A stretch of 64,000 nucleotides of DNA from a virus (taxonomy: Duplodnaviria > Caudoviricetes). The translations under genes were made by a program, and so were the position numbers. Below, in pieces: positions 1,628 to 16,709 of this stretch. The notes beneath the pieces are model-generated. The model saw only the letters and a list, made by a program, of their open reading frames with translations. It did no database searches and was not told where the DNA came from. The stretch's first letter is position 1. The number at the start of each line of letters is the position of its first letter. The stretch lies in IMG/VR virus record IMGVR_UViG_3300032330_001078, positions 2,575 to 66,574 of that record. One strand, written 5' to 3'.

Positions 1628-3210
1628 TGGCTGACGATGTAAGGCTGTCCTATCGTGACACAGATAGTTTAAACGCAACTCCTGCAGATATTGCGGGCAT
1701 GGTTGAGGCCAATAAGGCTTCGCCTTTTATGGAACTTGGTACTACTGGTCTTAAGCGTGCCGGTGGTTACATTGATGAGCAGTTCCTTCCGCAGTTGCGT
1801 GGTCGTAAAGCTGTTCAAATTTACAAGGAAATGGCTGAGAATGATCCGCTTATTGGGTCGTTGTGGTTCACTGTTGATCGTTTGATTCGTAATGTTGAGT
1901 GGCGCGTTGAGCCTGCTGGCAAGTCTAAAGAAGATACTCAGAATGCCAAACTTGTTGAAACGTGTATGGATGACATGTCTCATACGTGGGATGACTTCAT
2001 TTCTGAGGTTTTGACGTGTGTTATTTTTGGCTGGTCTTGGCATGAGATTGTGTACAAGAAGCGTGTTGGTCCTTGGGAAAAAGATGGCTCGCGTCGCTCT
2101 AAGTACACGGATGGAATGATTGGTTGGCGCAAGATGCCAATTCGTGCTCAGGAAACTTTGTTGCGTTGGGCTTTTGATGATTCTGGTGATGTAACTGCTA
2201 TGGTGCAGTTGGCTCCGCCTCGCTTTGAAACTACTGTTCTTCCTATTGAGCGTTCGTTACTGTTCCGTTACCGTCATACAAAGGGCAATCCTGAGGGCAT
2301 GTCAATGCTTCGTCAGGCTTATCGTCCTTGGTACATGAAGAAGCGTCTTGAAGAGTATGAGGCTGTTGGTGTAGAGCGTGACTTGGCTGGTCTTCCTATT
2401 GTGAAGGTTCCTGCTGAGTTTTTGCGTGCTAAGCCAGGGTCACAGCAGGCTCAAACTGTTGAGGCTTTCAAGCGTATGGTGAAGTCTGTGCGTCGCGATG
2501 AGCAAGAGGGCATTGTGTTTCCTATGGCTTACGATCAGGACACTAAGCAACCTTTGTATTCGTTTGAGCTTATGGGTGGTGGTGGCGCTCGTGCATTTAA
2601 CACTAATCAGATTATTGAGCGTTATGAGCAGCGTATCTTGATGTCTGTATTGGCTGATTTTATTATGGTTGGTCATCAGGGTGGAGGCTCTTACAGTTTG
2701 CATACCGATAAGACTGGTATCTTCCGAACATCACTGAACGCTATTGCGCAGTCTATTGCGGATACATTGAATCGGTATGCAATCCCTCGTTTGTTTGTAG
2801 TGAATGGCATTAAGCCTTCTGAACTTCCTAAGATTGTTCCTAGTGATGTTGATAGCCCAGACATTGCCCAGTTGGCGCAGTTTATGTCTTCTATGGCCTC
2901 TACTGGTGTTACTTGGTTCCCAGACCCAACTATGGAAAACTTTGTGCGTGATGCTGCTCGTCTTCCTAAGCTCAGTGAAGAGGAAGAAGATCGTCGTCGT
3001 CAGATGCAGATGCGTACTGAGGCTACACAATTTGCGCAGGCTAATACTGAATATTTGCAGGCTAAGCAAATGTATCGCCAGACTGTAATGAGTGAAATGG
3101 GTGAGCAACCTATGCAGCAAGGTCAGCCTGGTCAGCCCAATCAACAAGGTAGTCAACCAAATGCTGGTCAACAAGAAAGTCAACAGCCAGTCCCACAACA
3201 GGAGCGGTAG
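1627..3210 (+). CDS. Portal protein (DUF935-like actinophage type)
   Basis: ELGTTGLKR..G.I.EQFLPQLRG, CVIFGWSWHEIVYK, GNPEGMSMLRQAYRPW, GVERDLAGLP motifs; Gln-rich C-terminal tail; 527 aa. Confidence 0.9.
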   Translation: MADDVRLSYRDTDSLNATPADIAGMVEANKASPFMELGTTGLKRAGGYIDEQFLPQLRGRKAVQIYKEMAENDPLIGSLWFTVDRLIRNVEWRVEPAGKSKEDTQNAKLVETCMDDMSHTWDDFISEVLTCVIFGWSWHEIVYKKRVGPWEKDGSRRSKYTDGMIGWRKMPIRAQETLLRWAFDDSGDVTAMVQLAPPRFETTVLPIERSLLFRYRHTKGNPEGMSMLRQAYRPWYMKKRLEEYEAVGVERDLAGLPIVKVPAEFLRAKPGSQQAQTVEAFKRMVKSVRRDEQEGIVFPMAYDQDTKQPLYSFELMGGGGARAFNTNQIIERYEQRILMSVLADFIMVGHQGGGSYSLHTDKTGIFRTSLNAIAQSIADTLNRYAIPRLFVVNGIKPSELPKIVPSDVDSPDIAQLAQFMSSMASTGVTWFPDPTMENFVRDAARLPKLSEEEEDRRRQMQMRTEATQFAQANTEYLQAKQMYRQTVMSEMGEQPMQQGQPGQPNQQGSQPNAGQQESQQPVPQQER

Positions 3211-3470
3211 TGTTTATTACTGAACTTGAAAAGTCTGCTGAAAAAGTTGTCGCTGGGTCTTGTGCTCTTATTGCTAAAGAGAATAATGCAGATGCCGCCA
3301 AACTAGTGCAGTTCTTTTTAGATGATGCTCGTCGTGATGGTATTGATTTAAAGACTACGATGGAGGCTTTGGCACGTGCGGGTATTGTTGTTGCCTTGTT
3401 AGCTGCTGAGCCTGATTCAGAAGAAACGTTTGATCGTGTTATTCAAAGGCTGGGCGCTGTTCATGAGTGA
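3210..3470 (+). CDS. Hypothetical protein
   Basis: GTG start overlapping portal stop; stop overlaps next ATG. Confidence 0.6.
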   Translation: MFITELEKSAEKVVAGSCALIAKENNADAAKLVQFFLDDARRDGIDLKTTMEALARAGIVVALLAAEPDSEETFDRVIQRLGAVHE

Positions 3471-5310
3471 TAACAAGTCAAATCGTAGGAATGCTGCCGA
3501 GCGTACTGCCGGTGGCGCGGCTGTTTTTGGTGTTGGTGCAGGCGCTCGTTTTATTAATGACAATCGTTTTGCCGACGGCAAGAAGCCTACTATCTTGCAT
3601 GCTGTTAAAAATAAGACATTTTCGGGCACTCATGCAAGGTATCTTGGCGCTAAGGCTGGAGCGCGTGCGATTCAGGGTGCTGGTCTAACCGTTGCTGTGC
3701 TGGGCGGTAAGCAAGTTGTTACTGGTAAAAATAATGAAAAGTTTCGTTTGGGTCATGAGGTTGTTCGACCTTTGGTTGGCGCCGATAAGATTGAAGAAAA
3801 GGTGAATGAGCATATGTCTAAGGCTCGTGAAGAAGACCCAATAATTCGCAGTAAGCAGCGAACTCGTCGTTATGCTCAGGTGGGTGGTGCTATTGGTGGT
3901 ACTGCTTTGTTAATGCGTTCTCCCGAATTGGCTACTGCCGTTTCGCGTAATTCTAAATCTAAAATTATTTCTACTGCTCAGCGTCTTGAGCCTAAAACTA
4001 CACGTGCTTCAAATACTTTGCTTGCTGTTGGTGGCGGAATTGGTGCTGCGGGTGCTTTTAACTCTGCTCACATGCAAAAACTTGAGGCTAATAAATTGAA
4101 GCAAGATAAGCTCGCTAATATTGGCAAGGCATTTAAAGATAAGCGCCCAAAGTCTGACAGAGATAAGTACGCTGTTGCTGGTGGTGCTGGTCTAGCGGCA
4201 GGCGCTGCTTTTCCTACTTTACAAAAACTTCCTCATGATCAGGGTGCTTCTAATCGTATTACTGAGCAATTAAAGGGTAGTCACGAGGGTGAAGTTAAAG
4301 TTGCTGATGTGCGCGGAGTTGCTCGTGGTCCCGGTAAGCGTTTTGGAGCAGAGCGTAACCAAGCAAAACTTACTCATGCTATTGATGTAAAAGGCTACGA
4401 CAAGACTCGCCCAGTTGAAGTTTCTCGTTTTGCTAATGGTCAGATGATGGTTACTGGCGGTCATCACCGCTTGCATGCTGTTGAGGATTTAGGTCATGAA
4501 ACGGTTGCTGTTCGTGTGCGCAATGAAGCTGGAAAGGCTCCGCGTTCTGTAGTTCCTTTGTACGATTCTGCTAAATACATTAAAGATGTTATTGCAAACC
4601 GTCAGCCTCGTAAGCCTTTGGATGCGGAAGGTCGTAAGAGAGTACAGGCTCTTGCTGCGCAAAAAACTCCAAAGCATATCGAGCGTGCTAACCGTATTAA
4701 GAGTGTTTCTGAAGAAGCAATGCAAGGCCTTAAGACTCCGCGTAATAAAGCAATTGTTGCTGCTACCGCTGCTGCTGGTGCTACTGCTTACGGGGCTAAT
4801 AAGTTAAACAATAAAGGTAAAGTTTCTAAGCGTGATGATAAGTTCTTGACGCAGTACCGTGATCGTATTAGCCCTAGTGCTGAGGAGGGCTATAAGTATC
4901 TTAAGCGTGGTACGCGTAGTCGTCAGTTTGATGCTGCGGGTAATGCTGCTTTAGGTACTGGTCTTTTAGTACATGCTGGTCACATTGCTGCTAAAAAGCG
5001 TCCTATGGCTGCACTTGAGGGCTTGGGCGGCGCTATTGCTTTAAAGACTGCTTCGGATAGTCATGCTGATTCTCAGGTGTGGAATTCTAAACTTGGTAAG
5101 ATTAAAGCTGCTGCTAAACAGCGTGAAATTGATAATACTTGGGGTAAAGACCGTAGGGTTGATGTGGCTAAAAGCATTTGGGTTGAAAAAGGCCTTAGTG
5201 TAGGATTGCCTTACCCAAAGGGTATTCGTCGTGCTTCTGGTATTCGTGCAGGTCATTTGATGCGTACTCGTTCGGGTAAAACGGTTTCTGTTCGTGGTTC
5301 TGTAGGTTAG
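3463..5310 (+). CDS. Basic Gly/Ala-rich head-region protein with internal ParB/Srx-like domain
   Basis: Likely start ATG 3463 (MSDNK); ParB-like core RPVEVSRFANGQMMVTGGHHRLHAVEDLGHETVAVRV at about 4405-4520; many GxxxG hydrophobic segments. Confidence 0.7.
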   Translation: MSDNKSNRRNAAERTAGGAAVFGVGAGARFINDNRFADGKKPTILHAVKNKTFSGTHARYLGAKAGARAIQGAGLTVAVLGGKQVVTGKNNEKFRLGHEVVRPLVGADKIEEKVNEHMSKAREEDPIIRSKQRTRRYAQVGGAIGGTALLMRSPELATAVSRNSKSKIISTAQRLEPKTTRASNTLLAVGGGIGAAGAFNSAHMQKLEANKLKQDKLANIGKAFKDKRPKSDRDKYAVAGGAGLAAGAAFPTLQKLPHDQGASNRITEQLKGSHEGEVKVADVRGVARGPGKRFGAERNQAKLTHAIDVKGYDKTRPVEVSRFANGQMMVTGGHHRLHAVEDLGHETVAVRVRNEAGKAPRSVVPLYDSAKYIKDVIANRQPRKPLDAEGRKRVQALAAQKTPKHIERANRIKSVSEEAMQGLKTPRNKAIVAATAAAGATAYGANKLNNKGKVSKRDDKFLTQYRDRISPSAEEGYKYLKRGTRSRQFDAAGNAALGTGLLVHAGHIAAKKRPMAALEGLGGAIALKTASDSHADSQVWNSKLGKIKAAAKQREIDNTWGKDRRVDVAKSIWVEKGLSVGLPYPKGIRRASGIRAGHLMRTRSGKTVSVRGSVG

Positions 5311-5319: not shown

Positions 5320-8300
5320 ATGACAATGCTTGGTGCTATTCGTAAGGCTGTTGAGGCTGATCCTATTGGCGGTTCTGCTCTTATTGATGAGGTTGTTTAC
5401 TCTTATCTTGCCGACCAGGCTGAAGAGTTGCGCCCTGAGATTGAGCAGTTGCTTAGTTCTTTTATGCAAGAGCGTGTGCTTGTTGCTAAGCGTGCTTTAG
5501 GCCGTTCTTATGTTGAGTCTGTTGTTGAGGGTGATTATCCTTCTGAGGACATTCAAAAGAGTGCTCAGTGGATTGCTGGGCTTGAGATGTTTATTCATGA
5601 TTCTTTGGTGCAAAAGGATGACCTTGAAGGGTCTGATTTGTACGCGTTTAATCGTAAGCATCCGCGTGGTGCTGGTGGTCGTTTTCGTCGCGGTATTGCT
5701 CCTTACAACAAGGAAAAAGGACATCCTACAACTACTCGCAGAATGGAACAGATTAGTCCTAATTTGCGTAATGACTCTGTGCTTGATGACCCAGAAAAAG
5801 AAGGCAGAATCATTTCTCCATATGCTGATAAAGATGTTGTTCAGCAAGAGCAGCATCAGTATGAAGAGGCTAATAAAGTTGTTAACTCTATGCTGCGTAA
5901 CTTTAGCGGTAAGAGCCTAGATGACATTAACGTTATTGTTAACCTTACTGATGGCAATAATGGCAATAGGTACTCTCGTTCTTACAGTGCTAAGTCTATT
6001 AAGCAAGCTGGCGGATTTGATATGGATGATCCAAGTAAGTTGTGGACTGTTGGAGATATTATTAATGACTTTGAGCTTGAGGCTAAGTCTGGAGCGCCAG
6101 ATGTTGTTCAGAATCAAATCAATGCTTACAACACTTTAGGCAATACGGGCAATGCTGCGGTAGCGTCTTTGGCTACTGTTGACCCTGATCGTCTAAAAGC
6201 TCTTGGTGGGGCTTTTAATTATGGTGATTCACAAAAGAATACAAAGCTAGGTAATTTCTTTAACCGTTTGGGCGTTGGCGGTAGTGTCATGCAGCAAGTT
6301 CCGGGCATGGAAAAGTATGGCGATTATGCTCGTTTTGTCGGAACTATGGGACCACAAGCCGAGGATGCGCTTGGCCCTTATGTTCAGCAAGCTGCTTACC
6401 GTTACCGCGGTACTGAGAAAGAACCAGATTTAGAACTTATTCGTCAGTTTAATAGCAAGACTATGCGTGCTGTTGATGCTGCTGCAGAGTCTCGCACTAA
6501 AATGAGCGACATTTCTGACACTATTATGAATGCTGCTTCTGACCGTGCTAATCAGAGCGACATTACGTTACAGGCTGCTAGTCATCAGATTAATAACCTT
6601 TCGCGTACTCGCGGAGGAGCCTTTACCCCTGATGAGCTTTCTCTTAATGTGCGCGCTGATGTGGCTGCACATCACATGTTACAGACTTTGCCTGACGATC
6701 CTTTTATTGCTCGTGTTAGCGCTAAATCAGGAAACATTCTTCCTTCGCAGGGTGTCATTATTGATGCTGATGGCGATGTAGTTTCACAATCAGTTGGTTT
6801 TTCTGATGACCATTATTTGCCGTTTGACCTTAAGAATCTTAAGTCTTTGCGTGGCGGTCAGTATGTTCGTACTCGCCAGCAGGGTGGTTTGACTGGTGAA
6901 GACATTTATGCGTCTATTCGTAGTGGTACTCGCATGGCTACTGTTGTTTCATCTTCTGGCGTGTACTCTATTGAGTTTGATCCTAACTTCCGTGGTGCTC
7001 GTGCTAATAGCGATAAGGCTCGCTCAATGTACGACCGTTACTTAAAGATTCTTGATGCTGTAGATAAATCTGGTCTTTATGTTCAAGACATTTCTTCTGC
7101 TGAAAAGGCCCAGCTGAGAGCTCAAGCTCAAAGTATGGGTGATAAAGATGATGTTATTTTTGATCGTTTCTTGGAAGAGCGTCGTCAGGCTAGCCAATCT
7201 TTAGATTCTGGCACAATTGCTATTTTGCAAGAAGAAGCCACTGCACAGGTTGATTCAGAGGGCTTTAAGCAAAAGGGCGACCGCTATAACCGTCGCGTTG
7301 AAGAAGTGTTTGAAGAGTTGGCTGACGAGAAACTTAAAGAGCGAGTATCTCAGCTTTCTTTGAACGCTAAAGGTTACGATGTTGCTTTGCGTACATTACA
7401 GCAACAGTTCCCTTATTTTATTCGCAATGTGTCTTACCAGCCTTTGACTAGCAAGCAAGAAGGTGAAGGGTTCTTGCAGAGCCTTAACCAGTCTGGCAAA
7501 CTCGGTGCTCGTCAAACTCTTGGTGCTAAGGATGAGGGTTATGTTAATCCTGGTGGCTTGCGTCCTGAAAAGATGCGTCAGGGCTTCTATGCTCCGTCTC
7601 GCCAGTCTTACAACAAGTTTAAGAATGAAGATTATTACGGTGGCGGGTCTAACGAAGAAGTTGTGGAAGAAAAGACAACTGGCAAAAAGGCTGTTGCTAC
7701 TGGTGGCGCTAAGGGTGCAGTTGCGCCTAAGTCTGCTTTCTTGGCTCGTGTTGAGGCTTATTCTTCTGGCCAAAAAGATAAAGGCTTGAAAGCTATTAAG
7801 CAGTTAGACATTTTGCTTAACACTATTCCTGCTGATGCTGCTATTGGTGATGTGGACAAGAGCATTACCTGGAATGATGTCAAAGATTTGGATGATGCTG
7901 CTGCTTTGAAGTGGCTTTTGCATCCTGGCAATGGCGGCTTTACTAAGCCTTTTGAAAGCGACCCTGATCGCGTAACTAGTTTGTTAAGTAACAAGAAACT
8001 AGTTGATGAAACGCTCGGTATGTACAAGACTAGTGCTGAGTCTGGCCATGGTTTGGGTAGTTTTGGCGACTTAGAAACTATGTCGAACAAGATTGTTGAA
8101 GCGGGTAAAATTGCCTCTATGTCTAATTCGTTTAGCAATCCTTTTGCTGACGAAATTGCAGGGGATGAGGGTTACTTTTATGCCGGGGCTAAGCCAATGG
8201 CTATTAAAGATTTGGCTCTTGTATCTGACTCGTCTTCCATTAATGCTTTGCTTGAAAAGAACCCTGGCGTAGCTAATGCTTTTAATGATCTAAAATCAAT

Positions 8301-8862
8301 TGACGAAGGCGCTATTCCAACTACTCTTAAAGAGTACTTTAAGATTATTGCTGATGTTAAGAAAGCACATGATAGCGTTCTTTCTTTGGCTGCTGCCGAT
8401 GCAGAGACTGCTAAGAAAACTTACACTGTTGACGAAGTGTTACGCCAAGCTGGTGTTAGTGAAGACGAGTGGAAGAAAGCAATTGGTAATCTTAATGATT
8501 TAGTTCCTTATGGTTACAATTCAACGCTTCCTATGTCGCAGTTTAAAGATTATGTAATTAAACAGCGTGCAAGGAATCTGCAAGACGCACGGACTTTACT
8601 TACTGCTGATCGCTTGATGTCTGCTATGTCTGGCGGTGAAGAACCCCCAAAAGCACCGGCTCCAGTGGAGCCGTCACTGGAGCCAACGGCGAAGAACCTA
8701 AGCAAGGATTACTGGTCCCAACAGGATCCAAGCTTCCAGAGCCTAAGCAAGGGGCGCTTGTCCCCACGGGTTCAAGTCTTGAGCAAAAGCCATCCGTTAA
8801 CGCGGGAGATTCAAATGCGCAAGAGCCTGAACCTGCCGTTAGTGAGCAGGAAGCAAAAGTAG
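5320..8862 (+). CDS. Large hypothetical head-region protein (1180 aa; 0-frame product of a probable -1 frameshift gene)
   Basis: Long ORF with genome-typical codon bias; contains FNRKHPRGAGGRF motif; last 69 codons overlap an open -1 frame. Confidence 0.75.
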   Translation: MTMLGAIRKAVEADPIGGSALIDEVVYSYLADQAEELRPEIEQLLSSFMQERVLVAKRALGRSYVESVVEGDYPSEDIQKSAQWIAGLEMFIHDSLVQKDDLEGSDLYAFNRKHPRGAGGRFRRGIAPYNKEKGHPTTTRRMEQISPNLRNDSVLDDPEKEGRIISPYADKDVVQQEQHQYEEANKVVNSMLRNFSGKSLDDINVIVNLTDGNNGNRYSRSYSAKSIKQAGGFDMDDPSKLWTVGDIINDFELEAKSGAPDVVQNQINAYNTLGNTGNAAVASLATVDPDRLKALGGAFNYGDSQKNTKLGNFFNRLGVGGSVMQQVPGMEKYGDYARFVGTMGPQAEDALGPYVQQAAYRYRGTEKEPDLELIRQFNSKTMRAVDAAAESRTKMSDISDTIMNAASDRANQSDITLQAASHQINNLSRTRGGAFTPDELSLNVRADVAAHHMLQTLPDDPFIARVSAKSGNILPSQGVIIDADGDVVSQSVGFSDDHYLPFDLKNLKSLRGGQYVRTRQQGGLTGEDIYASIRSGTRMATVVSSSGVYSIEFDPNFRGARANSDKARSMYDRYLKILDAVDKSGLYVQDISSAEKAQLRAQAQSMGDKDDVIFDRFLEERRQASQSLDSGTIAILQEEATAQVDSEGFKQKGDRYNRRVEEVFEELADEKLKERVSQLSLNAKGYDVALRTLQQQFPYFIRNVSYQPLTSKQEGEGFLQSLNQSGKLGARQTLGAKDEGYVNPGGLRPEKMRQGFYAPSRQSYNKFKNEDYYGGGSNEEVVEEKTTGKKAVATGGAKGAVAPKSAFLARVEAYSSGQKDKGLKAIKQLDILLNTIPADAAIGDVDKSITWNDVKDLDDAAALKWLLHPGNGGFTKPFESDPDRVTSLLSNKKLVDETLGMYKTSAESGHGLGSFGDLETMSNKIVEAGKIASMSNSFSNPFADEIAGDEGYFYAGAKPMAIKDLALVSDSSSINALLEKNPGVANAFNDLKSIDEGAIPTTLKEYFKIIADVKKAHDSVLSLAAADAETAKKTYTVDEVLRQAGVSEDEWKKAIGNLNDLVPYGYNSTLPMSQFKDYVIKQRARNLQDARTLLTADRLMSAMSGGEEPPKAPAPVEPSLEPTAKNLSKDYWSQQDPSFQSLSKGRLSPRVQVLSKSHPLTREIQMRKSLNLPLVSRKQK

Positions 8863-9728
8863 ATAAGATTCGTCAAAGTATTCATTCAATGATTGGCATG
8901 AAGACTGTCGCCAATGAAATGGATAGTTTGGTTAATACTGCTTTGATTAATGAGCGTAGGCGCGAGGCTGGCTTGCCTGTGTCTAGTAGTTCTAATCATC
9001 TTGTGTTTACTGGTAATCCTGGAACAGGTAAGACTACTGTTGCGACCAAGCTTGCTGATTTGTACCACGCTACAGGTATTTTGCCTAAGAATACTGTTAC
9101 TGTTACTGGCCGCGATGAGTTGGTCGGTGAGTATGCTAACAACATTTCTAACAATGTCACCAAGATTTTTAATAAGGCACGCGGTGGTGTTTTGTTTGTT
9201 GATGAGGCTTACATGCTGTCTGATGATAATCTCGGCAAAGAAGCAGCCACTCAGTTGATGAAACTTATGGAAGAGCATAAGGACGATACTGTGGTGATTG
9301 TTGCTGGTTATCCTGACAAGATGAAAGAATTCATCAACATTAACCCTGGTATGAAGTCACGGTTCTCTCGTACTATTAATTTTCCTGATTATTCTGAGGC
9401 TGATCAAAAGAAAATTCTTTCGAGTATGTTTAAGGGCAATCAGGATAAAGTTAAAGACACGGCTACTGCTAGTGCTGTTTCTGCTGCTGTAAAGGTGTAC
9501 TCAAAGCAGGGTGGTAATGGTCGTGCTATGGAGCGTTTGCATTATGATTTGTATAAGGCTCGTTCTTCGCGTTTGGCTAATCAACCTAATGTGTCTGATA
9601 AAGATTTGAGCGTCTTTACTATTGAAGATGTTCAGAATGCTTTGGATCGTCAAGGATATAAGCCTCGCAAGCAAGCTGCTAAAAAACCGGCAAAGAGAGT
9701 GGAACAAAGTGAAGCGTTGGTGGGCTAG
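8640..9728 (+). CDS. CbbX/SpoVK/EccA-type AAA+ ATPase domain; frame open from 8640, first ATG at 8889
   Basis: HLVFTGNPGTGKTTVA (Walker A), GGVLFVDEAY (Walker B), VVIVAGY, NPGMKSRF..INFPDYS. Confidence 0.9.
   Translation, partial: RTPKSTGSSGAVTGANGEEPKQGLLVPTGSKLPEPKQGALVPTGSSLEQKPSVNAGDSNAQEPEPAVSEQEAKVDKIRQSIHSMIGMKTVANEMDSLVNTALINERRREAGLPVSSSSNHLVFTGNPGTGKTTVATKLADLYHATGILPKNTVTVTGRDELVGEYANNISNNVTKIFNKARGGVLFVDEAYMLSDDNLGKEAATQLMKLMEEHKDDTVVIVAGYPDKMKEFININPGMKSRFSRTINFPDYSEADQKKILSSMFKGNQDKVKDTATASAVSAAVKVYSKQGGNGRAMERLHYDLYKARSSRLANQPNVSDKDLSVFTIEDVQNALDRQGYKPRKQAAKKPAKRVEQSEALVG
8646..8690 (+). promoter_or_regulatory. Putative programmed -1 ribosomal frameshift signal
   Basis: In-phase heptamer C CCA AAA (8646-8652), 5-nt spacer, perfect 10-bp stem GGCTCCAGTG (8658-8667) / CACTGGAGCC (8675-8684). 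Confidence 0.75.
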
Positions 9729-12120
9729 TCCTGAAGACTCTATTGCTGCTTTGAGTGTCGTTGACGATTCTGATGTGGTCAATGGGGCGGGGGTAGCGTT
9801 CTTGGGCTATCACGGGCTTGTTCAGAAGGCTTTACAGCCATTGACTCAGGAAACTCTAGTAGATACACACAAAGTTCGCGAAGCCCTGTCTAAGGTTGAT
9901 TTAGAGCCTGTTATGAAGGCTTTAAGAGAAGCCACTAAGCCTGTTATGGGTGACGCTTCTGAGCGTTATGGCCAGTTGCTTGCTGAAGAAATACATAAGC
10001 GTGCTGTGGTGGCTACAGAGCGTCTTTTAAACACTTGGACTAATAACGGTATGCCTTGGCCTCAGGCTATTGAAAAAGCTGCTGAGGTTCATGGTGTTCC
10101 TTTGGAGCGTCTTGGGCGTTATGCAACTGTTATGAAGGCTGTTGGTATTACTCCGCTTGTTCGCGCTGATTATGCTGATCGTGAGTTGATGGCTTATGCA
10201 TCGGAGTTTGGTAATCGCGAGGCTGTTACTGATAACGCTTTAGTTATCAAGCAGGAAAAACAAATGAAGTTTAATGAAGAGGATCATCCGCGCAACCCTA
10301 ATGGTGAGTTTAAAAACAAAGAAGATAATGTTTCTTCGATTAGCGATAAGTTAAATAGGTTAAACCGTATTAATCGCATGAATCGCATTAACGGTGTTAA
10401 TCGTAAAGCTGCTGCGTCTAAGAAAACTGAAACTGTTACTGAAAAGCCAAAAGAAGAAAAAAAGTTTGAAGAAAAGCCTGCTTTTGGTGCGGTTAAGTAC
10501 GGTGCAGTTAAGTATGCTCCTGTTAATTACGGCAAGAAAACTTTTAAGGCTGTTAATTTTCCTCCGCGTACACCTGAAGGACCAAAAGAAACTGATTTTG
10601 AAAAAATTGATGACCCGTTTAGGTGGGACAAAACTGTCTATATACCTATTAGCGGAGAAACGTTTGAAAAAATTAAGTACACCTTGAATGGTTATTTCTT
10701 TATTGGTGAATTGGATAAAAATGGCGTTGAGGCCATTAATGAAGATGAAATGGAAGATTGGGTAAAGGCCCAAGGGAATGGCGCGACTGTAAAGTCTGGT
10801 ATTCAGGCTATGCGCGAAAATAATGTATTTCTTATGCGATCTAATTACACTCCGGTTAATCCAGCAACTATGGATGGCAAATTTGGTAGTAAAAAGGTTT
10901 ATGACAATTTGCATGAAGATACTGGCTCTGCGCATGTTGTTCCTAGAGCAAAATTTACTATGGTGCCTAATGGTGGCGAGTTATTGCAAGTTGGCGGTAA
11001 CAGCAACTTGGTGTTACAAGCTTGGTTAATTAATTTAGAAAACTCAGACTTTGATGATTTTTCTAAAAGCCTTCAATCCGCTCAATTGCAGCATTTTAAC
11101 GAAGAACATCCACGTGGAGAAGATGGAAAGTTTTCTTCTAAAGATGATGTTGTTGATATTCGCAATGCTCGTCTTGATCGTATGAATCGTATGAATCGTA
11201 TGAATAAGGTAAATAACAATAACCGAGCTGCACAGATGAAACGTTTAATAGAGCAGCGCAAGTTAATTGACGAGAAACAAGCTGAACTTGAGCAAAAGTT
11301 TGGCGACGTTAAATACGGCAGAGTTAAGTATAACGATAGAAAATTTGGCAATGTTACTTGGTCTAGCGTTAATTACGGCAATAAGCCATTGCCTAAGCCT
11401 TTAGATCTTGGCGATAAACTGGCTATGTTTGTTGGTATGGAGCAGGTTGGCGATATACATGATTTTGATTTGGCTAGTGCGATTCCTATTAAAATTGGTG
11501 ATGTTAAGGGTATAGAAGACTTCAAGTCACCTAGACCTTTAATTGATGAATCTATGTATGAAACATTAAATGATGACGTTCCTTCATCGAGCAGAACAAC
11601 TGCTTTACAAAAAATTACTGAAGATGCTGACACTTATTATGCTAGTCATGATGGTTACGCTACAGACAAATTTTATGCTACTGATAAGTATGGCGATAAA
11701 GAAAAATTTGATGGTTATTCTAATTTAGACGATGCAATGGAGTCTATTGCTAATAATGCCCCTAAAGATTTAGTCGAAGGAACAATTGTGTGGCAGCCTT
11801 TTCTTGAAGAGGTTAAAAATAATTATGGAGACGAAACTGATGATATTTATGTTGGCTGGGAAGGCAATGACATATCAGATGCTATTCGTGTGGTTTTAGG
11901 AAACAAAGAGGATTTTGCGGCTTTAAGGGACGGCAATGCTACAATTCAAGAGGTTGATGGTGTTAATTGTCTAGCTGATTTGCTTTTAAAGTCTACTAAT
12001 AATGGTGAAAAATTGAGTGTTAATTATGTTTTTGAACTTTTATTTGAGGGTGGAACTAAAAACAATATAGGCACTAATCCGCCAATTGAGGCATATACCA
12101 TTAAGATAAATAATAGTTAG
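9709..12120 (+). CDS. Hypothetical head-region protein with duplicated HPR-motif module
   Basis: Likely start GTG 9709 rather than TTG 9622; two copies of FNEE(D)HPR..G.F + RMNR repeats + FG.VKYG. Confidence 0.7.
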   Translation: MKRWWASPEDSIAALSVVDDSDVVNGAGVAFLGYHGLVQKALQPLTQETLVDTHKVREALSKVDLEPVMKALREATKPVMGDASERYGQLLAEEIHKRAVVATERLLNTWTNNGMPWPQAIEKAAEVHGVPLERLGRYATVMKAVGITPLVRADYADRELMAYASEFGNREAVTDNALVIKQEKQMKFNEEDHPRNPNGEFKNKEDNVSSISDKLNRLNRINRMNRINGVNRKAAASKKTETVTEKPKEEKKFEEKPAFGAVKYGAVKYAPVNYGKKTFKAVNFPPRTPEGPKETDFEKIDDPFRWDKTVYIPISGETFEKIKYTLNGYFFIGELDKNGVEAINEDEMEDWVKAQGNGATVKSGIQAMRENNVFLMRSNYTPVNPATMDGKFGSKKVYDNLHEDTGSAHVVPRAKFTMVPNGGELLQVGGNSNLVLQAWLINLENSDFDDFSKSLQSAQLQHFNEEHPRGEDGKFSSKDDVVDIRNARLDRMNRMNRMNKVNNNNRAAQMKRLIEQRKLIDEKQAELEQKFGDVKYGRVKYNDRKFGNVTWSSVNYGNKPLPKPLDLGDKLAMFVGMEQVGDIHDFDLASAIPIKIGDVKGIEDFKSPRPLIDESMYETLNDDVPSSSRTTALQKITEDADTYYASHDGYATDKFYATDKYGDKEKFDGYSNLDDAMESIANNAPKDLVEGTIVWQPFLEEVKNNYGDETDDIYVGWEGNDISDAIRVVLGNKEDFAALRDGNATIQEVDGVNCLADLLLKSTNNGEKLSVNYVFELLFEGGTKNNIGTNPPIEAYTIKINNS

Positions 12121-12128
12121 CAGGAGTT

Positions 12129-12845
12129 ATGATGGATTCATTTGAAGTTGTTAAGTCTTTGCACGAAGTCGACCCGGGCTTTGTCGAGCTTTGCAAAACC
12201 CTTTTTGGCGATGCTGTGCATGCCGAGGATGTATGGGAGTACTTGTATACCGTTGATGGTATTTCTAAGATGGACTCAGCTGACGTTCATGTTAATAATG
12301 CTGGTAGGGGAAAGTTAGTCCCGCGGGAGCGCACTCCTCAAATTCCTCGTGTCAAGGTTCCTAAGAAGATTAACCCTAAGATGAAAGACGGCACTATCAT
12401 CGATAACACTGATGCTATGAGCAAGTCTGATGATGATTTTGACATTACTTGGGCTGGCGAGTTTGCTAAGGCTGACGAGGATAAGCGTCAGGTTTTTGGT
12501 TGGGCTTCTATTGTTGAGGTTGATGGTCAGCCTGTTATTGATCGTCAGGGCGATTGGATTTCTCCTGAGGAAATTGAGAAGGCTGCTTACCAGTATGTTC
12601 TTAATTCTCGTAAGGCTGGGCATCAGCATAAGCGCGATGGGGACCAGCCATTCCATGCTGGTGACATGATTGAGTCTTTTGTTATGACTCCTGAGAAGGT
12701 TGAAAAGATGGGCTTGCCTGACTCCACTCCTATTGGTTGGTGGGTTGGCTACAAGATTCATGATGATGACGCGTGGCAGAAGGTTAAGAAGGGCGAAGTT
12801 ACTGGCTTTTCTATTCATGGCCGCGGTAAGCGTAAAGAAGCATAG
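12129..12845 (+). CDS. Prohead maturation protease, XkdF-like serine protease
   Basis: KRQVFGWAS, DRQGDWISPEEIEKAAY, GHQH, ESFV, GWWVGYKIHDDDAWQKVKKGEVTGFSIHG; RBS AGGAG. Confidence 0.85.
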   Translation: MMDSFEVVKSLHEVDPGFVELCKTLFGDAVHAEDVWEYLYTVDGISKMDSADVHVNNAGRGKLVPRERTPQIPRVKVPKKINPKMKDGTIIDNTDAMSKSDDDFDITWAGEFAKADEDKRQVFGWASIVEVDGQPVIDRQGDWISPEEIEKAAYQYVLNSRKAGHQHKRDGDQPFHAGDMIESFVMTPEKVEKMGLPDSTPIGWWVGYKIHDDDAWQKVKKGEVTGFSIHGRGKRKEA

Positions 12846-12847
12846 TT

Positions 12848-13336
12848 ATGGGTTATTTATCTGCAAATAACCAAAATACAACCAGCCCTTATGCTGGTTT
12901 TGCGGCAGCAGGCGGTGTAGGTGGCGCTGTTCTTGGCCACAAGTTTGGCGGCGGACCTAAAGGCGCTTTAGTTGGCGCAGCGCTTGGCGCGGCTGGGGTG
13001 GGCTCGCAAGCACGCTTTGTTAAAACCAAGAAGCCTAGTGTGAGCCAAACACTTACTGCAAGCAATGTTTCTAAAGGTACTAACTTTAAGGATTACGAAA
13101 ATCTTCCCGAGAATGTTCGTTCATGGACGGACAAGGGTCCTTTTATTCGTCGTAATCCTGTTTCTCCTACGGACATGCTTTCTTCTGGAATGATGATGGC
13201 TGAGGCTCAAGCTGCCGGTATGGGGCGTAATCTCACGCGTAAGCAAAAGAAGCGCATGGGTAATAATGTTAAGAATTATGGCGAGGGGCGTATGTTTATG
13301 TACAGTCCTCTTAGTCGTGGAAGTATGATGACGTGA
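12848..13336 (+). CDS. Gly/Ala-rich hypothetical protein
   Basis: Glycine-zipper N-terminal half, then NVSKG and a basic C-terminal half. Confidence 0.6.
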   Translation: MGYLSANNQNTTSPYAGFAAAGGVGGAVLGHKFGGGPKGALVGAALGAAGVGSQARFVKTKKPSVSQTLTASNVSKGTNFKDYENLPENVRSWTDKGPFIRRNPVSPTDMLSSGMMMAEAQAAGMGRNLTRKQKKRMGNNVKNYGEGRMFMYSPLSRGSMMT

Positions 13337-14712
13337 GTGGCGCTCCTTCTAACAAGCCTCAGTCTGAGAAAGAACTAAAGACTGCTAGGACTCTTAACAC
13401 TGTTGCCACTATTGGTGCTGGTCACGCTATTGTTGCTTCTACTCCTGCTGAGTGGCGTGCTAAGGTTCCTGGCCGTAAGAAGTTAGTTAGTGCTGGTTGG
13501 CTTAATGAGCCACAAGCTCATGTTAAAAAACCGCTTCCACCTAAGTTGGCGCGTTTAATGCCTAAGTCTGGTACTTCTGCAAAAATTGCTGCGGGGACTG
13601 CTGCTGGTGGTTGGCTTACTCTTCATGGTGGCGAGCTTGCTGGCGACATTATGGCCCGTAGGTCTATTAATAATCAAATCTCACAATTGCCAGAAAATAA
13701 GGGTAAGGTTGATTCTGTGAAAAAGAATGATCAGTCAATGATTAGCAAGGCCGAGGGTTCTGTTAGTCGTAATGGACACGGTAAAGCTTTGGACGCTACC
13801 GGTTCTTTAGCTATGGCAGGTGGTGGTGGTTATGCGCTTAGCCGTATACCAGGGTTTAAGGAGGCTTCGCGCGATGAAAAACTTACGCGTGCACTGGCTC
13901 CTTCACGTAACCGTTTTACGTTAGATGCTCAACGAGACATTATTGATGCTATGAAACGTAAAAGTCGCGCTGGCAATAAGGTTGCTGCTGGTGGTCTTTT
14001 GGCAGCAGCAGGTTTGGCTGAGCATGCTCATAGTAAAAAAGTAAATAAGTCTTTGGTTGAGGTTGCTAAGGGCGCTAATACTGCTACTGCTCTTGGCGCT
14101 ACTCCTACTATTGGATCTATTGCTGCACCTATTTACAATGCCACGCAAGCGCGAGATGGTCGTAAGGCTGCTGTTGCTGGCCGTACTTATGGATCTATGA
14201 TTGCTTACGGCACAGGCGCGGCAGCTCTTGGTACGGGTGCGCTGTATGCTAACGCTGCAAGAAAAGGCGCCAAGCCTATTGTTAATACTGCAGCTAAACC
14301 AGGTATAAGCCGCGCCGCAGCTACTTTTGGTCATAAGCCAGCTATTGCTGCGGGTCTTGGTGTTTTAGGCGGCTTGGGTTATGGCGCACGTCGCGCTAAC
14401 CAAAATGCTGTTAAGCGTGGCGACATTGTTAAGGCTTATCGTCGTTTTGATCCTGAGGCTGACCGTCAGCGTCGCGCTGGTCTTTACACTGGTGTTGGCG
14501 TTTTGGGTGCGGGTTTGGCTGGTCGTGAGGCTGCTAATCATTTCACGACTAAGGCAAAAGACGTTCAGGGTGTCACGGTTCGCGGTGTTGTGGCAAAGCC
14601 TAAGAAGGGCAAGTTGGGTCTAGGTTTGGCTGCTGTTGCTGGTGCTTCTGGTGCTTTTGGTGCTCATTCGTACAAGAGTGGTTTATCTACTCGTAATCAG
14701 CCTTGGACATAA
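13333..14712 (+). CDS. Basic Gly/Ala-rich hypothetical protein with many hydrophobic segments
   Basis: GTGA overlap; repeated K/R-flanked GxxxG segments; ISKA, VNKS, VAKG, IVKA motifs. Confidence 0.65.
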   Translation: MSGAPSNKPQSEKELKTARTLNTVATIGAGHAIVASTPAEWRAKVPGRKKLVSAGWLNEPQAHVKKPLPPKLARLMPKSGTSAKIAAGTAAGGWLTLHGGELAGDIMARRSINNQISQLPENKGKVDSVKKNDQSMISKAEGSVSRNGHGKALDATGSLAMAGGGGYALSRIPGFKEASRDEKLTRALAPSRNRFTLDAQRDIIDAMKRKSRAGNKVAAGGLLAAAGLAEHAHSKKVNKSLVEVAKGANTATALGATPTIGSIAAPIYNATQARDGRKAAVAGRTYGSMIAYGTGAAALGTGALYANAARKGAKPIVNTAAKPGISRAAATFGHKPAIAAGLGVLGGLGYGARRANQNAVKRGDIVKAYRRFDPEADRQRRAGLYTGVGVLGAGLAGREAANHFTTKAKDVQGVTVRGVVAKPKKGKLGLGLAAVAGASGAFGAHSYKSGLSTRNQPWT

Positions 14713-14765
14713 AAGTTCTTAAGTCTAATGCGAACCAACCAAATGTGTAAGAAGATTGGATTATT

Positions 14766-15773
14766 ATGAATCATAATGTTAAGAGACTGTTCGACATCGA
14801 AATCGATGAAGTGTCTGTAGTTGACCGTCCGGCCAATCAGCATGGTCTTATCGCTTTTGCAAAGAATGACTCTTTTGATGAATTGGAGACCGGAGTGCCT
14901 GAAGAACTGTATGACGAGACGGGTGAAGAAATCCCTGTTGAAGTTTTGGAACATGGCGATATTGTTTTTGATGCTGAGGGCAACGAGTTTGTCTATGTTG
15001 AAGATGATGAAGACGATGATGATGTTGAAAAGGCAATTGCTTTAGAGGCTGGAAACATCGGCGAAAGATTAGCTTCGCGTGGCGGTAAGCGCGTTGAGCA
15101 ATTCAAAGATTTCTTTGCACCTAAGACGGGTGCACGGAAGTGGCTACCTGGCCAAGTTGGTCCTGGTGGTCAGCAAGCATATAAAGATGCTCGCCAATTA
15201 AATAAAACGCGTGTTGGAATTGCAGGTGCTGGTGTACTTGGAGTTGGCGGCACGGGATACGCCTTATCAAAGGCAGAAATGAGTGATCATATGAGTCTAG
15301 GTGACTCGGTTCTAGAAGAACTAAGCAAAGCGGTCACCGAGCGTGATCGCGAATACATTATTGCTAAGGCAATGGATGAAGTTGAAATCGCAAAGGCTCA
15401 GGCTGCAGAAGCGTTCGAATATGCTGCTGCTCTTGAAGACGCTCGCGTTGAAGAAGCTTTCATCTCTAAGGCAGCAGAGTACAACCTACCTGTTGCGCCT
15501 GAAGTATTCGGCCCTATCTTGAAGTCAATCGCTGAAGCGCTGACTGAGGATGAGTTGGAACTTCTTGACGAACTTTTCTCGGCTATCGGTGATTCACTGT
15601 ATGATGAGATTGGTTACGTTGGCGAATCTTCAAACTCTTCAGTACTTGACACTGTTAGTGGTCTTGCTTCTGAGTTTGTTGGCAAGTCAGACGTTTCCTA
15701 CGAACAGGCTTATGCTGCAATGTTCGAAGCTAACCCAAGCGCATATGACGCTTACCTAACCGAAGGACGATAA
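14766..15773 (+). CDS. Capsid scaffolding protein
   Basis: LFDIEIDEVSVVDRPAN N-terminus typical of scaffolds in XkdF-protease head modules; acidic and helical; sits before decoration and capsid genes. Confidence 0.75.
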   Translation: MNHNVKRLFDIEIDEVSVVDRPANQHGLIAFAKNDSFDELETGVPEELYDETGEEIPVEVLEHGDIVFDAEGNEFVYVEDDEDDDDVEKAIALEAGNIGERLASRGGKRVEQFKDFFAPKTGARKWLPGQVGPGGQQAYKDARQLNKTRVGIAGAGVLGVGGTGYALSKAEMSDHMSLGDSVLEELSKAVTERDREYIIAKAMDEVEIAKAQAAEAFEYAAALEDARVEEAFISKAAEYNLPVAPEVFGPILKSIAEALTEDELELLDELFSAIGDSLYDEIGYVGESSNSSVLDTVSGLASEFVGKSDVSYEQAYAAMFEANPSAYDAYLTEGR

Positions 15774-15776
15774 GCC

Positions 15777-16709
15777 ATGGCTTTTGAAGATACCCTCAAA
15801 TCTATCAGTCTGAATGCTGATAGCTCGATTGCTGGTTTTACTGGCGTATCGGGTGTTGCTGCAGGTGGTGGCCCGTCTACTTTCGTTAAGATTGCGTCCA
15901 TCACTGGTACCGATACAATTAATACATCTACCGCACACGGTTATTCTGTAGGCGATGTTGTTTACATTGCTAATGCAACTACTGCCGGTAACAATGGTGG
16001 TTTTACAGTTACAAGTATTGGTAGTTCTACGTCTTTCAAGACTGGCGCTACTTACACTAACCAAGCTGCTGCCGGCGGTACTGTTAACAAGACCAACTTT
16101 AACCAGTTGTACCGTTTTGTTAAGATCACTGGTGCTAAGACTGCTGGCCTTGTAACAAGCCCTAACGATTACTCAATTGGCGTTTTGCAGAATAAGCCAC
16201 AGTACACTGGTCAGGCTGCGCAGGTTGGTTTCCTAGGTGTTTCTTATGTAATCACTGGTGCTGGTGTTGCTTCTACTAACATCACTGCTGGTGACAAGAT
16301 TGCGCCGGATACACTGGGCGCTGCTACTAAGTACCTAGGTGGATTTAACAACGCACTTAACTACACTCAGGGTTCAACCTCTAGTACCTTCTCTTCACCA
16401 ACTGTCACAATGACTCTTGGTCCAGCAGGTTCTGCTACTACCTCTGACGTAACATCACACGGCGTACAGGTTGGCGACATCGTTAACATCTCGTACGCGA
16501 CAACTGCTGCTAACAACGGTACTTTTGTTGTAACTGCTGTTGGTGCTACTACAATCTCTTACATCAACGCTGCAGGCGCTGCTGAAGCCGGTCGTGCTTC
16601 TTCAGCTACCAAGGTACAGGTTGTTCGTCAGCAGGTTGTTGCTGGTACTGCACTCGCATCTTCGTCTACTCCAGGCGAACTAATCCCAGTTCTACTGGCC
16701 GCCCGATAA
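15777..16709 (+). CDS. Capsid decoration/cement protein (DUF2190-like) with two inserted beta-rich repeats
   Basis: LYRFVKITG..IGVLQNKP..AAQVGFLGVS..ITAGDKI and GTALASSSTPGELIPVLL; directly upstream of the major capsid gene. Confidence 0.7.
   Translation: MAFEDTLKSISLNADSSIAGFTGVSGVAAGGGPSTFVKIASITGTDTINTSTAHGYSVGDVVYIANATTAGNNGGFTVTSIGSSTSFKTGATYTNQAAAGGTVNKTNFNQLYRFVKITGAKTAGLVTSPNDYSIGVLQNKPQYTGQAAQVGFLGVSYVITGAGVASTNITAGDKIAPDTLGAATKYLGGFNNALNYTQGSTSSTFSSPTVTMTLGPAGSATTSDVTSHGVQVGDIVNISYATTAANNGTFVVTAVGATTISYINAAGAAEAGRASSATKVQVVRQQVVAGTALASSSTPGELIPVLLAAR

What the first reader, a model, noticed from the sequence alone, without database searches (positions are those of the whole stretch)
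8640..9728. Probable programmed -1 frameshift fusing a 1111-aa head-region protein to an AAA+ ATPase
Seen: the ATPase frame is open from 8640, about 250 nt before its first ATG, with no ATG/GTG/TTG in that stretch. Just inside the overlap is an in-phase heptamer C CCA AAA (8646-8652), a 5-nt spacer and a perfect 10-bp stem. Loop bases GCCGT (8670-8674) also complement ACGGC (8686-8690), allowing alternative folds. In the -1 frame a 12-aa repeat (EPKQGLLVPTGS at 8694, EPKQGALVPTGS at 8739) is 11/12 identical with 7 synonymous third-position changes, so that frame is under coding selection. The 0-frame tail carries LSKD, LSKG and LSKS, resembling the putative protease motif, so both products may be real. 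Inference: two isoforms, 1180 aa and about 1469 aa with a C-terminal ATPase, at a fixed ratio. In tailed phages such recoding is mostly known for tail chaperones and Ig-domain additions, not for adding an ATPase motor.
Basis: partly seen in the sequence, partly recalled or inferred. Interest (0 to 1): 0.85.

Follow-up and report, generated by a model that had tools for sequence, protein, structure and literature searches.

The report
Frameshift fuses ATPase to phage protein
In this uncultured phage of about 66 kb and some 20 diverged relatives, a conserved ribosome-slipping signal near the end of a 1180-residue head-module gene very probably makes a share of the protein carry a CbbX/SpoVK-type AAA+ ATPase; I found no published account of frameshifting used this way.

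Summary
The 1180-aa ORF (5320-8862) and the AAA+ ATPase ORF (-1 frame, open 8640-9728) overlap by 223 nt. The in-phase heptamer C_CCA_AAA (8646-8652) is followed by a 5-nt spacer and a GC-rich hairpin.

- **Conservation.** All 28 loci that carry both genes (21 non-redundant lineages, 30-95% protein identity, GC 43-72%) have the ATPase in the -1 frame. All keep the same in-phase heptamer against their own codon usage (joint probability about 1e-41).
- **Flanking signals.** Most lineages have a hairpin 4-8 nt downstream, with compensatory changes. Most also have a Shine-Dalgarno-like G-rich element upstream, so the cassette resembles the E. coli dnaX site.
- **Dual coding.** The overlap is constrained at all three codon positions. 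Both the 0-frame tail and the -1 linker carry conserved motifs.
- **No separate start.** The ATPase has no start codon or SD before its homology begins.
- **Family pattern.** A sister clade keeps the heptamer but appends a different, unknown domain. More distant relatives lack both heptamer and extension.

Assembly error is excluded. The products are most likely a 1180-aa and a 1469-aa protein, an arrangement like Gag/Gag-Pol. The function of the fusion is inferred, not shown. The scan has noted the same device before on other DNA (e1-5346069, e1-5908591).

The parts
5320..8862 (+). Frame-0 gene of the large head-module protein (1180 aa). No Pfam, PHROG or NCBIfam match. About 110 homologs, all from metagenomes.
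   Evidence: AF2 model has mean pLDDT 82.6; its last structured helix ends at residue 1104, just before the shift site at P1110-K1111.
8632..8639 (+). G-rich Shine-Dalgarno-like element (GGCGGTGA) 7-14 nt upstream of the heptamer. It is a candidate 5' stimulator. It also supplies the -1-frame stop TGA 8637-8639.
   Evidence: anti-SD pairing in the 20 nt upstream is in the top ~2% (median) of gene positions across 26 loci. The result is confounded by conserved Gly-Gly codons.
8646..8652 (+). Slippery heptamer C_CCA_AAA, in phase with frame 0.
   Evidence: present and in phase in all 28 loci with both genes. NNC-CCA-AAA is kept even where CCA and AAA make up 2-14% of Pro and Lys codons.
8653..8657 (+). 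5-nt spacer.
   Evidence: the spacer is 4-8 nt in relatives, most often 5-6.
8658..8684 (+). 3' stimulatory hairpin of 11 bp with a 5-nt loop. A shorter proximal version (8658-8663 with 8667-8672, 3-nt loop) is the one shared with close relatives.
8652..8862 (+). Dual-coding overlap: frame-0 tail (residues 1112-1180) and -1 linker of the trans-frame protein.
   Evidence: divergence at the three codon positions is 0.14/0.16/0.24 here, against 0.38/0.31/0.56 upstream and 0.04/0.39/0.10 in the ATPase.
8694..8774 (+). Two copies of a 12-aa unit in the -1 frame that holds the motif LVPTGS (8694-8729 and 8739-8774). The second copy overlaps the conserved frame-0 tail.
   Evidence: The LVPTG-like motif recurs in the -1 linker of most lineages, including a non-ATPase relative (L092).
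8767..8844 (+). Conserved C-terminal motif of the frame-0 product (RVxVLSKSxPL...R...LPLV). AF2 predicts a short helix at residues 1159-1169.
8652..9728 (+). -1 frame read after the slip: 358 codons plus the stop (9726-9728).
8871..9635 (+). CbbX/SpoVK/EccA-class AAA+ module. Walker A lies at 9012-9035 and Walker B at 9189-9206.
   Evidence: CbbX 3SYK, E 4e-42; catalytic motifs invariant in 21 sequences.
8889..8891 (+). First ATG of the -1 frame, which gene callers take as the ATPase start. It has no SD and lies inside the conserved N-terminal helix, within the SMIGM motif.

Best explanation
This is a programmed -1 ribosomal frameshift.

**Standard decoding.** Most ribosomes translating the 1180-aa head-module gene read on in frame 0. 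They finish with a disordered linker and a short conserved C-terminal peptide.

A fraction pause with tRNA-Pro on CCA and tRNA-Lys on AAA (8647-8652). They are held by the GC-rich hairpin 5 nt downstream, and probably also by pairing of the 16S rRNA tail with a G-rich element upstream. Both tRNAs slip back one base onto CCC and AAA. Translation resumes at AGC 8652 in the -1 frame. It crosses a linker of about 75 residues and then adds a complete CbbX/SpoVK/EccA-type AAA+ ATPase, giving a 1469-aa protein.

- **Shown here, by comparison only:** the signal and both coding readings are under selection.
- **Inferred:** the slip itself and its efficiency.
- **Inferred more weakly (about 40%):** the purpose. 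As with retroviral Gag/Gag-Pol, the shared 1111-residue body would bring a few ATPase-bearing copies into the same assembly as the abundant short form. From the gene's position between portal and prohead protease, that assembly is probably the procapsid interior.
For: 1. **Anatomy.** In-phase X_XXY_YYZ heptamer, 5-nt spacer and 11-bp hairpin. The -1 frame opens 6 nt before the heptamer.
2. **Frame relation.** In all 28 loci with both genes the ATPase is in the -1 frame, overlaps by 109-529 nt, and C_CCA_AAA is in phase.
3. **Codon usage.** From each locus's own usage, the chance of NNC-CCA-AAA at a fixed x-Pro-Lys over 17 lineages is about 1e-41.
4. **Downstream structure.** The 45 nt downstream fold in the lowest ~5% (median) of windows in the same gene (Fisher 7e-10). 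A perfect hairpin lies 4-8 nt downstream in 17 of 21 lineages. Two base pairs change on both sides (GC/CG and UA/CG) among close relatives.
5. **Upstream element.** An SD-like element lies upstream (median percentile 1.7%).
6. **Synonymous sites.** Variation is suppressed at all three codon positions only in the overlap. The -1 repeat has 7 synonymous changes against 1 replacement. Motifs are conserved in both frames.
7. **No own start.** ATPase homology starts 6-20 residues before the first ATG. That ATG lacks the GG-rich SD seen before most other genes.
8. **Phylogeny.** Every locus with the heptamer falls on one side of a 100/98 branch. Its sister subclade keeps the heptamer with a different -1 ORF, and the other half of the family has neither.
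9. **Domain boundary.** The shift site sits where the structured part of the AF2 model ends.
10. **Natural fusion.** One 1453-aa in-frame fusion exists, with the junction EPK-S.
Against: - There is no protein, RNA or ribosome-profiling evidence. No cultured member is known and the host is unknown.
- The efficiency of C_CCA_AAA in the host is unknown.
- ATG 8889 lies 27 nt after the frame-0 stop. Termination-reinitiation could therefore also yield a free 279-aa ATPase, which is how all gene callers annotate it.
- Four ATPase-clade lineages have only imperfect hairpins.
- The upstream G-rich element coincides with conserved Gly-Gly codons, so its RNA role is not separable from protein constraint.
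- The loci are related by descent, so the combined P-values overstate independence.
- The one in-frame fusion sits on a short contig with a fragmented portal gene and on a long branch.
Confidence: 0.88

Rival explanations
1. These are two ordinary neighbouring genes. The ATPase would be made only as a free 279-aa protein from ATG 8889, by reinitiation after the frame-0 stop 27 nt upstream. The heptamer and hairpin would be incidental.
For: Gene callers annotate it this way in every relative. The short distance from the stop makes coupling possible. ATGA-type overlaps also place a downstream gene in the -1 frame.
Against: - It does not explain the invariant in-phase heptamer kept against codon bias, the positioned and covarying hairpin, or the constraint and motifs in the -1 frame upstream of the ATG.
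- ATPase homology starts before the ATG.
- The ATG is not conserved as a start in lineages such as L013.
- There is no SD.
- A free ATPase made in addition to the fusion is not excluded.
Confidence: 0.06
2. A sequencing or assembly indel splits what is really a single in-frame 1469-aa gene.
For: Homopolymer runs (C5 A4) lie at the junction. One relative (L032) is in frame.
Against: The same frame relation occurs in 27 independent assemblies from different samples and pipelines, with overlaps of 109-529 nt and a conserved frame-0 tail. A single indel would not give a conserved 70-residue alternative tail.
Confidence: 0.01
3. Transcriptional slippage by RNA polymerase on the C/A run, rather than ribosomal slippage, produces mRNAs that encode the fusion.
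For: It would give the same protein products. A homopolymer is present.
Against: The runs are short (3-5 C, 4 A), whereas known slippage sites have about 8 or more identical bases (established knowledge; review PMC5009743). What is conserved is a phased heptamer with a hairpin at ribosomal spacing.
Confidence: 0.03
4. The frameshift is real, but its role is regulatory. It would set the amount or timing of ATPase relative to the large protein, with the fusion quickly cleaved into separate proteins.
For: A conserved LVPTG-like motif, doubled here, sits in the -1 linker. An XkdF-type prohead protease is encoded 2.4 kb downstream. [LVI][SE]K motifs recur in head-module proteins.
Against: No cleavage site has been demonstrated. 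This is a refinement of the main explanation, not an alternative to the slip.
Confidence: 0.25

Closest known systems
E. coli dnaX tau/gamma -1 frameshift cassette (reviewed in PMC5009743)
   Same: A three-part signal: an upstream SD-like element, an X_XXY_YYZ heptamer with Lys in the A site, and a stem-loop 5-6 nt downstream. An AAA+ protein is involved.
   Different: dnaX uses A_AAA_AAG and the shift truncates the protein after one codon. Here C_CCA_AAA is used and the shift adds a whole 358-residue arm. The two arms overlap in two conserved reading frames for about 210 nt.
Lambda gpG/gpGT and other tail assembly chaperone frameshifts (Xu, Hendrix & Duda 2004, as cited in PMC10885494 and PMC5009743)
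   Same: A conserved -1 slip near the 3' end of a phage morphogenesis gene. It gives a short abundant form and a long rare form that share an N-terminal body.
   Different: The gene here is in the head module, not the tail module. It is unrelated in sequence, ten times larger, and the added part is an enzyme.
Capsid-protein extensions by -1 frameshift: Lactobacillus phage A2 gp5A/5B and T7/T3 10A/10B (PMC5009743, section 'Selected viruses')
   Same: A frameshift in a head gene yields two forms in one particle. From memory, unverified here, A2 also uses C_CCA_AAA with a downstream stem-loop.
   Different: Those extensions are short or are Ig-like decorations on the major capsid protein. Here an AAA+ ATPase is added to a non-capsid 1180-aa protein.
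Retroviral Gag / Gag-Pol
   Same: The logic is the same: an enzyme is appended to a fraction of an assembly protein by a -1 slip, so it enters the particle at a set low ratio.
   Different: There is no homology. Incorporation into the phage head is inferred from gene position only.
MuF-like head proteins fused to effector domains, and polyvalent proteins (the PRFect paper, PMC10885494, raises possible PRF between MuF-like and VIP2 ART genes)
   Same: A large head-module protein next to the portal carries a C-terminal enzymatic module. In some genomes the two are fused and in others they are separate.
   Different: The large protein here has no detectable MuF domain. The idea in that paper is a software prediction, not this family and not an ATPase.
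CbbX (red-type Rubisco activase), SpoVK and EccA AAA+ ATPases
   Same: The best sequence matches are PDB 3SYK (E 4e-42), TIGR02881, TIGR03922 and TIGR02880. The Walker A, Walker B and arginine motifs are intact.
   Different: Scores are far below each family's equivalog cut-off, so it is an orthologue of none. It is phage-encoded and is read as the C-terminal arm of a trans-frame protein.

Membership tests
Programmed -1 ribosomal frameshift site (bacterial/phage type) | X_XXY_YYZ heptamer in phase with the upstream frame | tested here: met
   C_CCA_AAA at 8646-8652. It is the only in-phase heptamer in the overlap.
Programmed -1 ribosomal frameshift site (bacterial/phage type) | Long -1 ORF that opens at the site and has no start signal of its own | tested here: met
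   The -1 frame is open 8640-9728. The first start codon is ATG 8889, without an SD, and domain homology begins upstream of it.
Programmed -1 ribosomal frameshift site (bacterial/phage type) | Stimulatory RNA structure 5-9 nt downstream | tested here: met
   An 11-bp hairpin follows a 5-nt spacer. A perfect hairpin lies 4-8 nt downstream in 17 of 21 ATPase-clade lineages. Local MFE has a median at the 5th percentile. Two pairs covary.
Programmed -1 ribosomal frameshift site (bacterial/phage type) | Signal conserved in homologs beyond what the protein requires | tested here: met
   28 of 28 loci keep it. Codon-usage probability is about 1e-41. Presence of the heptamer coincides with presence of a -1 ORF on the family tree.
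Programmed -1 ribosomal frameshift site (bacterial/phage type) | Upstream SD-like stimulator (dnaX/IS type) | tested here: inconclusive
   Anti-SD complementarity is strongly enriched 3-22 nt upstream. The same bases encode conserved Gly-Gly-Asp/Glu.
Programmed -1 ribosomal frameshift site (bacterial/phage type) | Trans-frame protein actually made | not testable with these tools
   No cultured phage is known.
CbbX/SpoVK/EccA class of AAA+ ATPases | Profile match to the class and AAA core | tested here: met
   Pfam AAA scores 51.3 bits against a cut-off of 21.2. CbbX 3SYK gives E 4e-42. TIGR02881, TIGR03922 and TIGR02880 give E 1e-51 to 1e-58.
CbbX/SpoVK/EccA class of AAA+ ATPases | Orthology to one named member (equivalog cut-off) | tested here: not met
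   Scores of 198, 182 and 175 bits against cut-offs of 423, 467 and 459.
CbbX/SpoVK/EccA class of AAA+ ATPases | Intact Walker A, Walker B and conserved arginines | tested here: met
   These motifs are invariant across 21 sequences.
MuF / SPP1 gp7-like minor head protein (for the 1180-aa protein) | Phage_Mu_F domain or fold | tested here: inconclusive
   No Pfam, PHROG or NCBIfam hit. There are only weak BFVD matches to proteins named 'minor capsid protein'. PDB fold searches were uninformative.
Virion-packaged head-internal (cargo) protein | Presence in virions / processing by the prohead protease | not testable with these tools
   Only position is known. The gene lies between the Mu-like portal (1627-3210) and the XkdF-type protease (12129-12845), upstream of the major capsid gene (16730-17797).

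The most novel reading that the evidence does not exclude
The C_CCA_AAA site may be a general cargo-appending hub of this phage protein family. One conserved recoding cassette at the end of the structured body would let different C-terminal modules be swapped in during evolution and loaded into the head at sub-stoichiometric dose. These modules are an AAA+ ATPase in one clade and unrelated domains of 140-290 residues in the sister clade. The frame-0 tail would serve as a removable targeting or cleavage peptide. The packaged ATPase would act after ejection into the host, where ATP is available, as a remodelling or counter-defence motor.
Probability: 0.3. Interest if true: 0.85.

Novelty: new variant of a known kind. 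Interest (0 to 1): 0.62.

Why it matters
- **Recoding.** Phage recoding is documented mainly for tail chaperones and small capsid decorations. Here a textbook-quality -1 signal adds a whole molecular motor to a giant head-module protein. The overlap is about 210 nt and is read, and conserved, in two frames.
- **Annotation.** All current annotations split the pair into a 'hypothetical protein' and a truncated 'AAA ATPase'. The real 1469-aa product is therefore absent from protein databases.
- **Experimental handles.** The case offers a clean natural test bed for C_CCA_AAA frameshifting in hosts outside the enterobacteria. It also gives a lead to how phages dose enzymatic cargo, and a conserved junction that can be searched for in metaproteomes.
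- **Wider pattern.** Similar CCCAAAA cases noted elsewhere in this scan suggest a widespread, undescribed habit of head-module cargo genes.

Tried and rejected
- **Raw reads.** The indel question was settled by 27 independent assemblies instead.
- **GenBank phages.** There is no nucleotide match and no protein match to the conserved core of the large protein. The ATPase finds only distant AAA+ genes in unrelated contexts, for example phage Adler.
- **Identity of the 1180-aa protein.**
  - A PDB profile search gave nothing below E 0.006.
  - The ESM Atlas gave no usable hit.
  - Foldseek against PDB and VIA-align on the full model returned only helical-hairpin noise.
  - BFVD found only its own family plus weak 'minor capsid protein' rows.
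  - The core domain (residues 455-745, pLDDT 84) gave at best a deaminase-like match: DddB Z 5.2, rmsd 2.4 over 82 residues, and Foldseek probability up to 0.97 over 75-100 residues. This is below reliable levels, and there are no conserved Cys/His zinc ligands, so I make no call.
- **In-frame fused forms.** A search with the ATPase restricted to longer proteins was swamped by cellular multi-AAA proteins and gave no information.
- **Pseudoknot or alternative pairing** (8670-8674 with 8686-8690). It is not conserved in relatives and is sterically unlikely.
- **Rfam.** No family matches in 8400-9000.
- **Tail comparison.** BLASTP between the C-terminal tails of the 626-aa and the 1180-aa proteins gave no alignment. 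Only a short shared V-x-V-[AS]-K-S-like motif is visible by eye.
- **Host.** The only genome hit is a Microlunatus MAG contig, from the sister clade.
- **Literature.** No paper describes this fusion.
Full report
**What is in the sequence.**
- The window carries a phage morphogenesis module, in this order:
  - Mu-like portal (1627-3210)
  - an 86-aa ORF
  - a 626-aa protein
  - the 1180-aa ORF (5320-8862)
  - an AAA+ ORF
  - an 803-aa ORF, probably starting at GTG 9709
  - an XkdF-type serine protease (12129-12845)
  - several unknown proteins
  - the major capsid protein (16730-17797)
  - later a tape measure gene
- The AAA+ reading frame is the -1 frame relative to the 1180-aa ORF. It is open from 8640, directly after TGA 8637-8639, to 9728. 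It has no ATG, GTG or TTG before 8889.
- C_CCA_AAA at 8646-8652 is in phase with frame 0.
- A 5-nt spacer and an 11-bp hairpin (8658-8668 with 8674-8684) follow. No other position in the gene has as good a hairpin 3-9 nt downstream.

**Relatives.**
- IMG/VR scans with the large protein, the ATPase and a 76-sequence alignment gave L001-L086. Exact-protein look-ups added four closer relatives, L087-L090.
- All 28 loci that contain both genes, the window included, show the same three things:
  - the ATPase is in the -1 frame;
  - the two ORFs overlap by 109-529 nt;
  - C_CCA_AAA is in phase.
- These loci form 21 non-redundant lineages. Identity of the large protein is 30-95% and locus GC is 43-72%. 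This excludes an assembly error.
- The residue before Pro varies (E, A, F, L, S, G, V), but its codon always ends in C. Pro is always CCA and Lys always AAA, even where these make up only 2-14% of the synonymous codons. From each locus's own codon usage the joint probability over 17 lineages is about 1e-41. That figure is an upper bound on significance, because the loci share ancestry.

**Flanking signals.**
- The 45 nt that begin 3 nt after the heptamer fold more stably than about 95% of windows in the same gene (median; Fisher 7e-10).
- A perfect GC-rich hairpin of 5-11 bp starts 4-8 nt downstream in 17 of 21 ATPase-clade lineages. The other four have imperfect structures.
- Among close relatives the stem switches between GGCTCC/GGAGCC and GCCCCC/GGGGGC. 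That is two pairs changed on both sides, while the peptides encoded in both frames differ freely.
- Upstream, a G-rich stretch complementary to the 16S rRNA tail lies 3-22 nt before the heptamer in most lineages (median percentile 1.7%). It also encodes conserved Gly-Gly, so its RNA role is unproven.
- The whole cassette looks like the dnaX site as reviewed in PMC5009743.
- No Rfam family matches.

**Both readings are real.**
- Among six relatives of 60-95% identity, divergence by frame-0 codon position was as follows:

| Region | Position 1 | Position 2 | Position 3 |
|---|---|---|---|
| Upstream (single coding, frame 0) | 0.38 | 0.31 | 0.56 |
| Overlap | 0.14 | 0.16 | 0.24 |
| ATPase (single coding, -1 frame) | 0.04 | 0.39 | 0.10 |

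- Low divergence at all three positions in the overlap is what two overlapping coding frames should give.
- The frame-0 tail carries a motif found in nearly all lineages (RVxVLSKSxPL...R...GLPxV). The -1 linker carries G-x-L-V-P-T-G in most lineages.
- LVPTG also occurs in a relative whose frame-0 tail is different (L092). It is therefore not a by-product of the other frame.
- In the window the unit is duplicated. The two copies differ by 7 synonymous changes and one replacement in the -1 frame, while frame 0 differs heavily.

**The ATPase has no start of its own.**
- Homology to CbbX (3SYK, E 4e-42) and to the SpoVK profile begins at residue 78 of the -1 ORF. Phage relatives align from residues 52-84. 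The first ATG is residue 84, inside the conserved SMIGM motif.
- That ATG has no GG-rich SD, unlike most gene starts in the window. The residue is not Met in several lineages.
- Walker A, Walker B and the conserved arginines are invariant, so the arm is an active-looking ATPase.
- Reinitiation at ATG 8889, 27 nt after the frame-0 stop, cannot be excluded as an additional route.

**Family picture.**
- On a tree of the conserved core domain, a 100/98 branch separates all heptamer-bearing loci from the rest.
- Within the heptamer side, one subclade (100/99) has the ATPase.
- The sister subclade (100/96) comprises L026, L037, L038, L040, L092 and L051.
  - Five of these keep C_CCA_AAA, and L040 has G_GGA_AAA.
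  - In the five other than L051, the slip site is followed by a -1 reading of 176-298 codons without AAA+ similarity, lying between the large gene and the homolog of the 803-aa gene. In L051 it runs only 60 codons.
- The other half of the family has no heptamer and unrelated C-termini.
- One contig in that half (L032) encodes a 1453-aa in-frame fusion with junction EPK-S. Its heptamer is lost. The contig is short, has a fragmented portal gene and sits on a long branch, so it is only weak support.

**Structure.**
- AlphaFold2 with 76 homologs gives a confident model (pLDDT 82.6).
- The last helix ends at residue 1104. Pro1110-Lys1111, the shift site, opens a disordered stretch. A short helix at 1159-1169 lies in the conserved frame-0 tail.
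- The slip therefore happens exactly at a domain boundary.
- No known fold was recognised for the body.

**Mechanism and function.**
- The slip gives a 1180-aa and a 1469-aa product (1111+358 residues).
- By position the protein belongs to the head module. Relatives of its 626-aa neighbour carry a ParB_N domain, which is common in phage polyvalent cargo proteins.
- I think a Gag/Gag-Pol-like arrangement is most likely: the shared body takes a few ATPase-bearing copies into the same assembly. This is inference.
- Cleavage at the linker motif, or action after ejection into the host, are open possibilities.

**Novelty.**
- Published phage -1 frameshifts concern tail chaperones, capsid extensions (A2, T7/T3, A118) and Ig-like domains (PMC5009743). 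PRFect only raises the possibility of frameshifting for MuF-like/VIP2 gene pairs (PMC10885494).
- I found no paper on this family or on an ATPase appended in this way.
- The scan has noted the same device before on other genomes: e1-5346069, and e1-5908591, whose quoted linker matches the L018/L019 lineage. It has also noted several CCCAAAA frameshifts that add other enzymes to head-module proteins.

Noticed in passing
L026:8109-8687, L037:9081-9722, L038:8803-9702, L040:8955-9545, L092:5054-5587: Sister-clade relatives keep the slippery heptamer (G_GGA_AAA in L040). After it, the -1 frame reads 176-298 codons with no AAA+ similarity and no Pfam match. These domains are only weakly alike among themselves.
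   Followed up: partly
L032:4213-8574: A 1453-aa in-frame fusion of a distant homolog of the large protein with the same class of ATPase. The junction is GAA CCA AAA AGT (EPK-S) and the heptamer is lost. The contig is short and its portal gene is fragmented.
   Followed up: partly
window 3430-5310 and homologs upstream of the large gene in L087-L090, L003, L024 and others: The 626-aa neighbour has ParB_N hits in relatives. It also has its own conserved C-terminus: a V-D-V-A-K-S-like motif followed by a basic tail ending in VSVRGSVG. The first part resembles the V-x-V-L-S-K-S motif of the frame-0 tail, which may point to a shared processing or targeting signal.
   Followed up: partly
window 5320-17797 (head-module proteins): [LVI][SE]K followed by a small residue recurs in these proteins: four times in the acidic 335-aa protein, three times in the last 55 residues of the large protein, and also in the protease, the 162-, 459- and 803-aa proteins. 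It is a candidate prohead-protease site and is untested.
   Followed up: no
window 6682-7554 (residues 455-745 of the large protein): This is the most conserved core of the family, with about 33 invariant residues. AF2 gives pLDDT 84. There is a weak deaminase-like fold match (DddB Z 5.2; cytidine deaminases at Foldseek probability up to 0.97), but no conserved zinc ligands.
   Followed up: partly
window 9709-9728: The next gene (803 aa) probably starts at GTG 9709, with GAGAG upstream. It overlaps the ATPase end by 20 nt and returns to the frame of the large gene.
   Followed up: no
window 8694-8774: The 45-nt duplication in the overlap is present only in the closest relatives (L001, L087, L089). 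It is absent from L088 and L090, so it is recent. A nucleotide block (CTYGTCCCNACRGGT) in the second copy is conserved across many lineages.
   Followed up: partly
L003 and L006 (contig IMGVR_UViG_3300027749_000047, 136 kb): One IMG/VR contig carries two diverged copies of the whole locus about 67 kb apart, with ATPases 88% identical. It is probably a chimeric join of two related ~67-kb phage genomes.
   Followed up: no
window 12848-13336: A 162-aa protein with a glycine-zipper match lies directly after the prohead protease.
   Followed up: no
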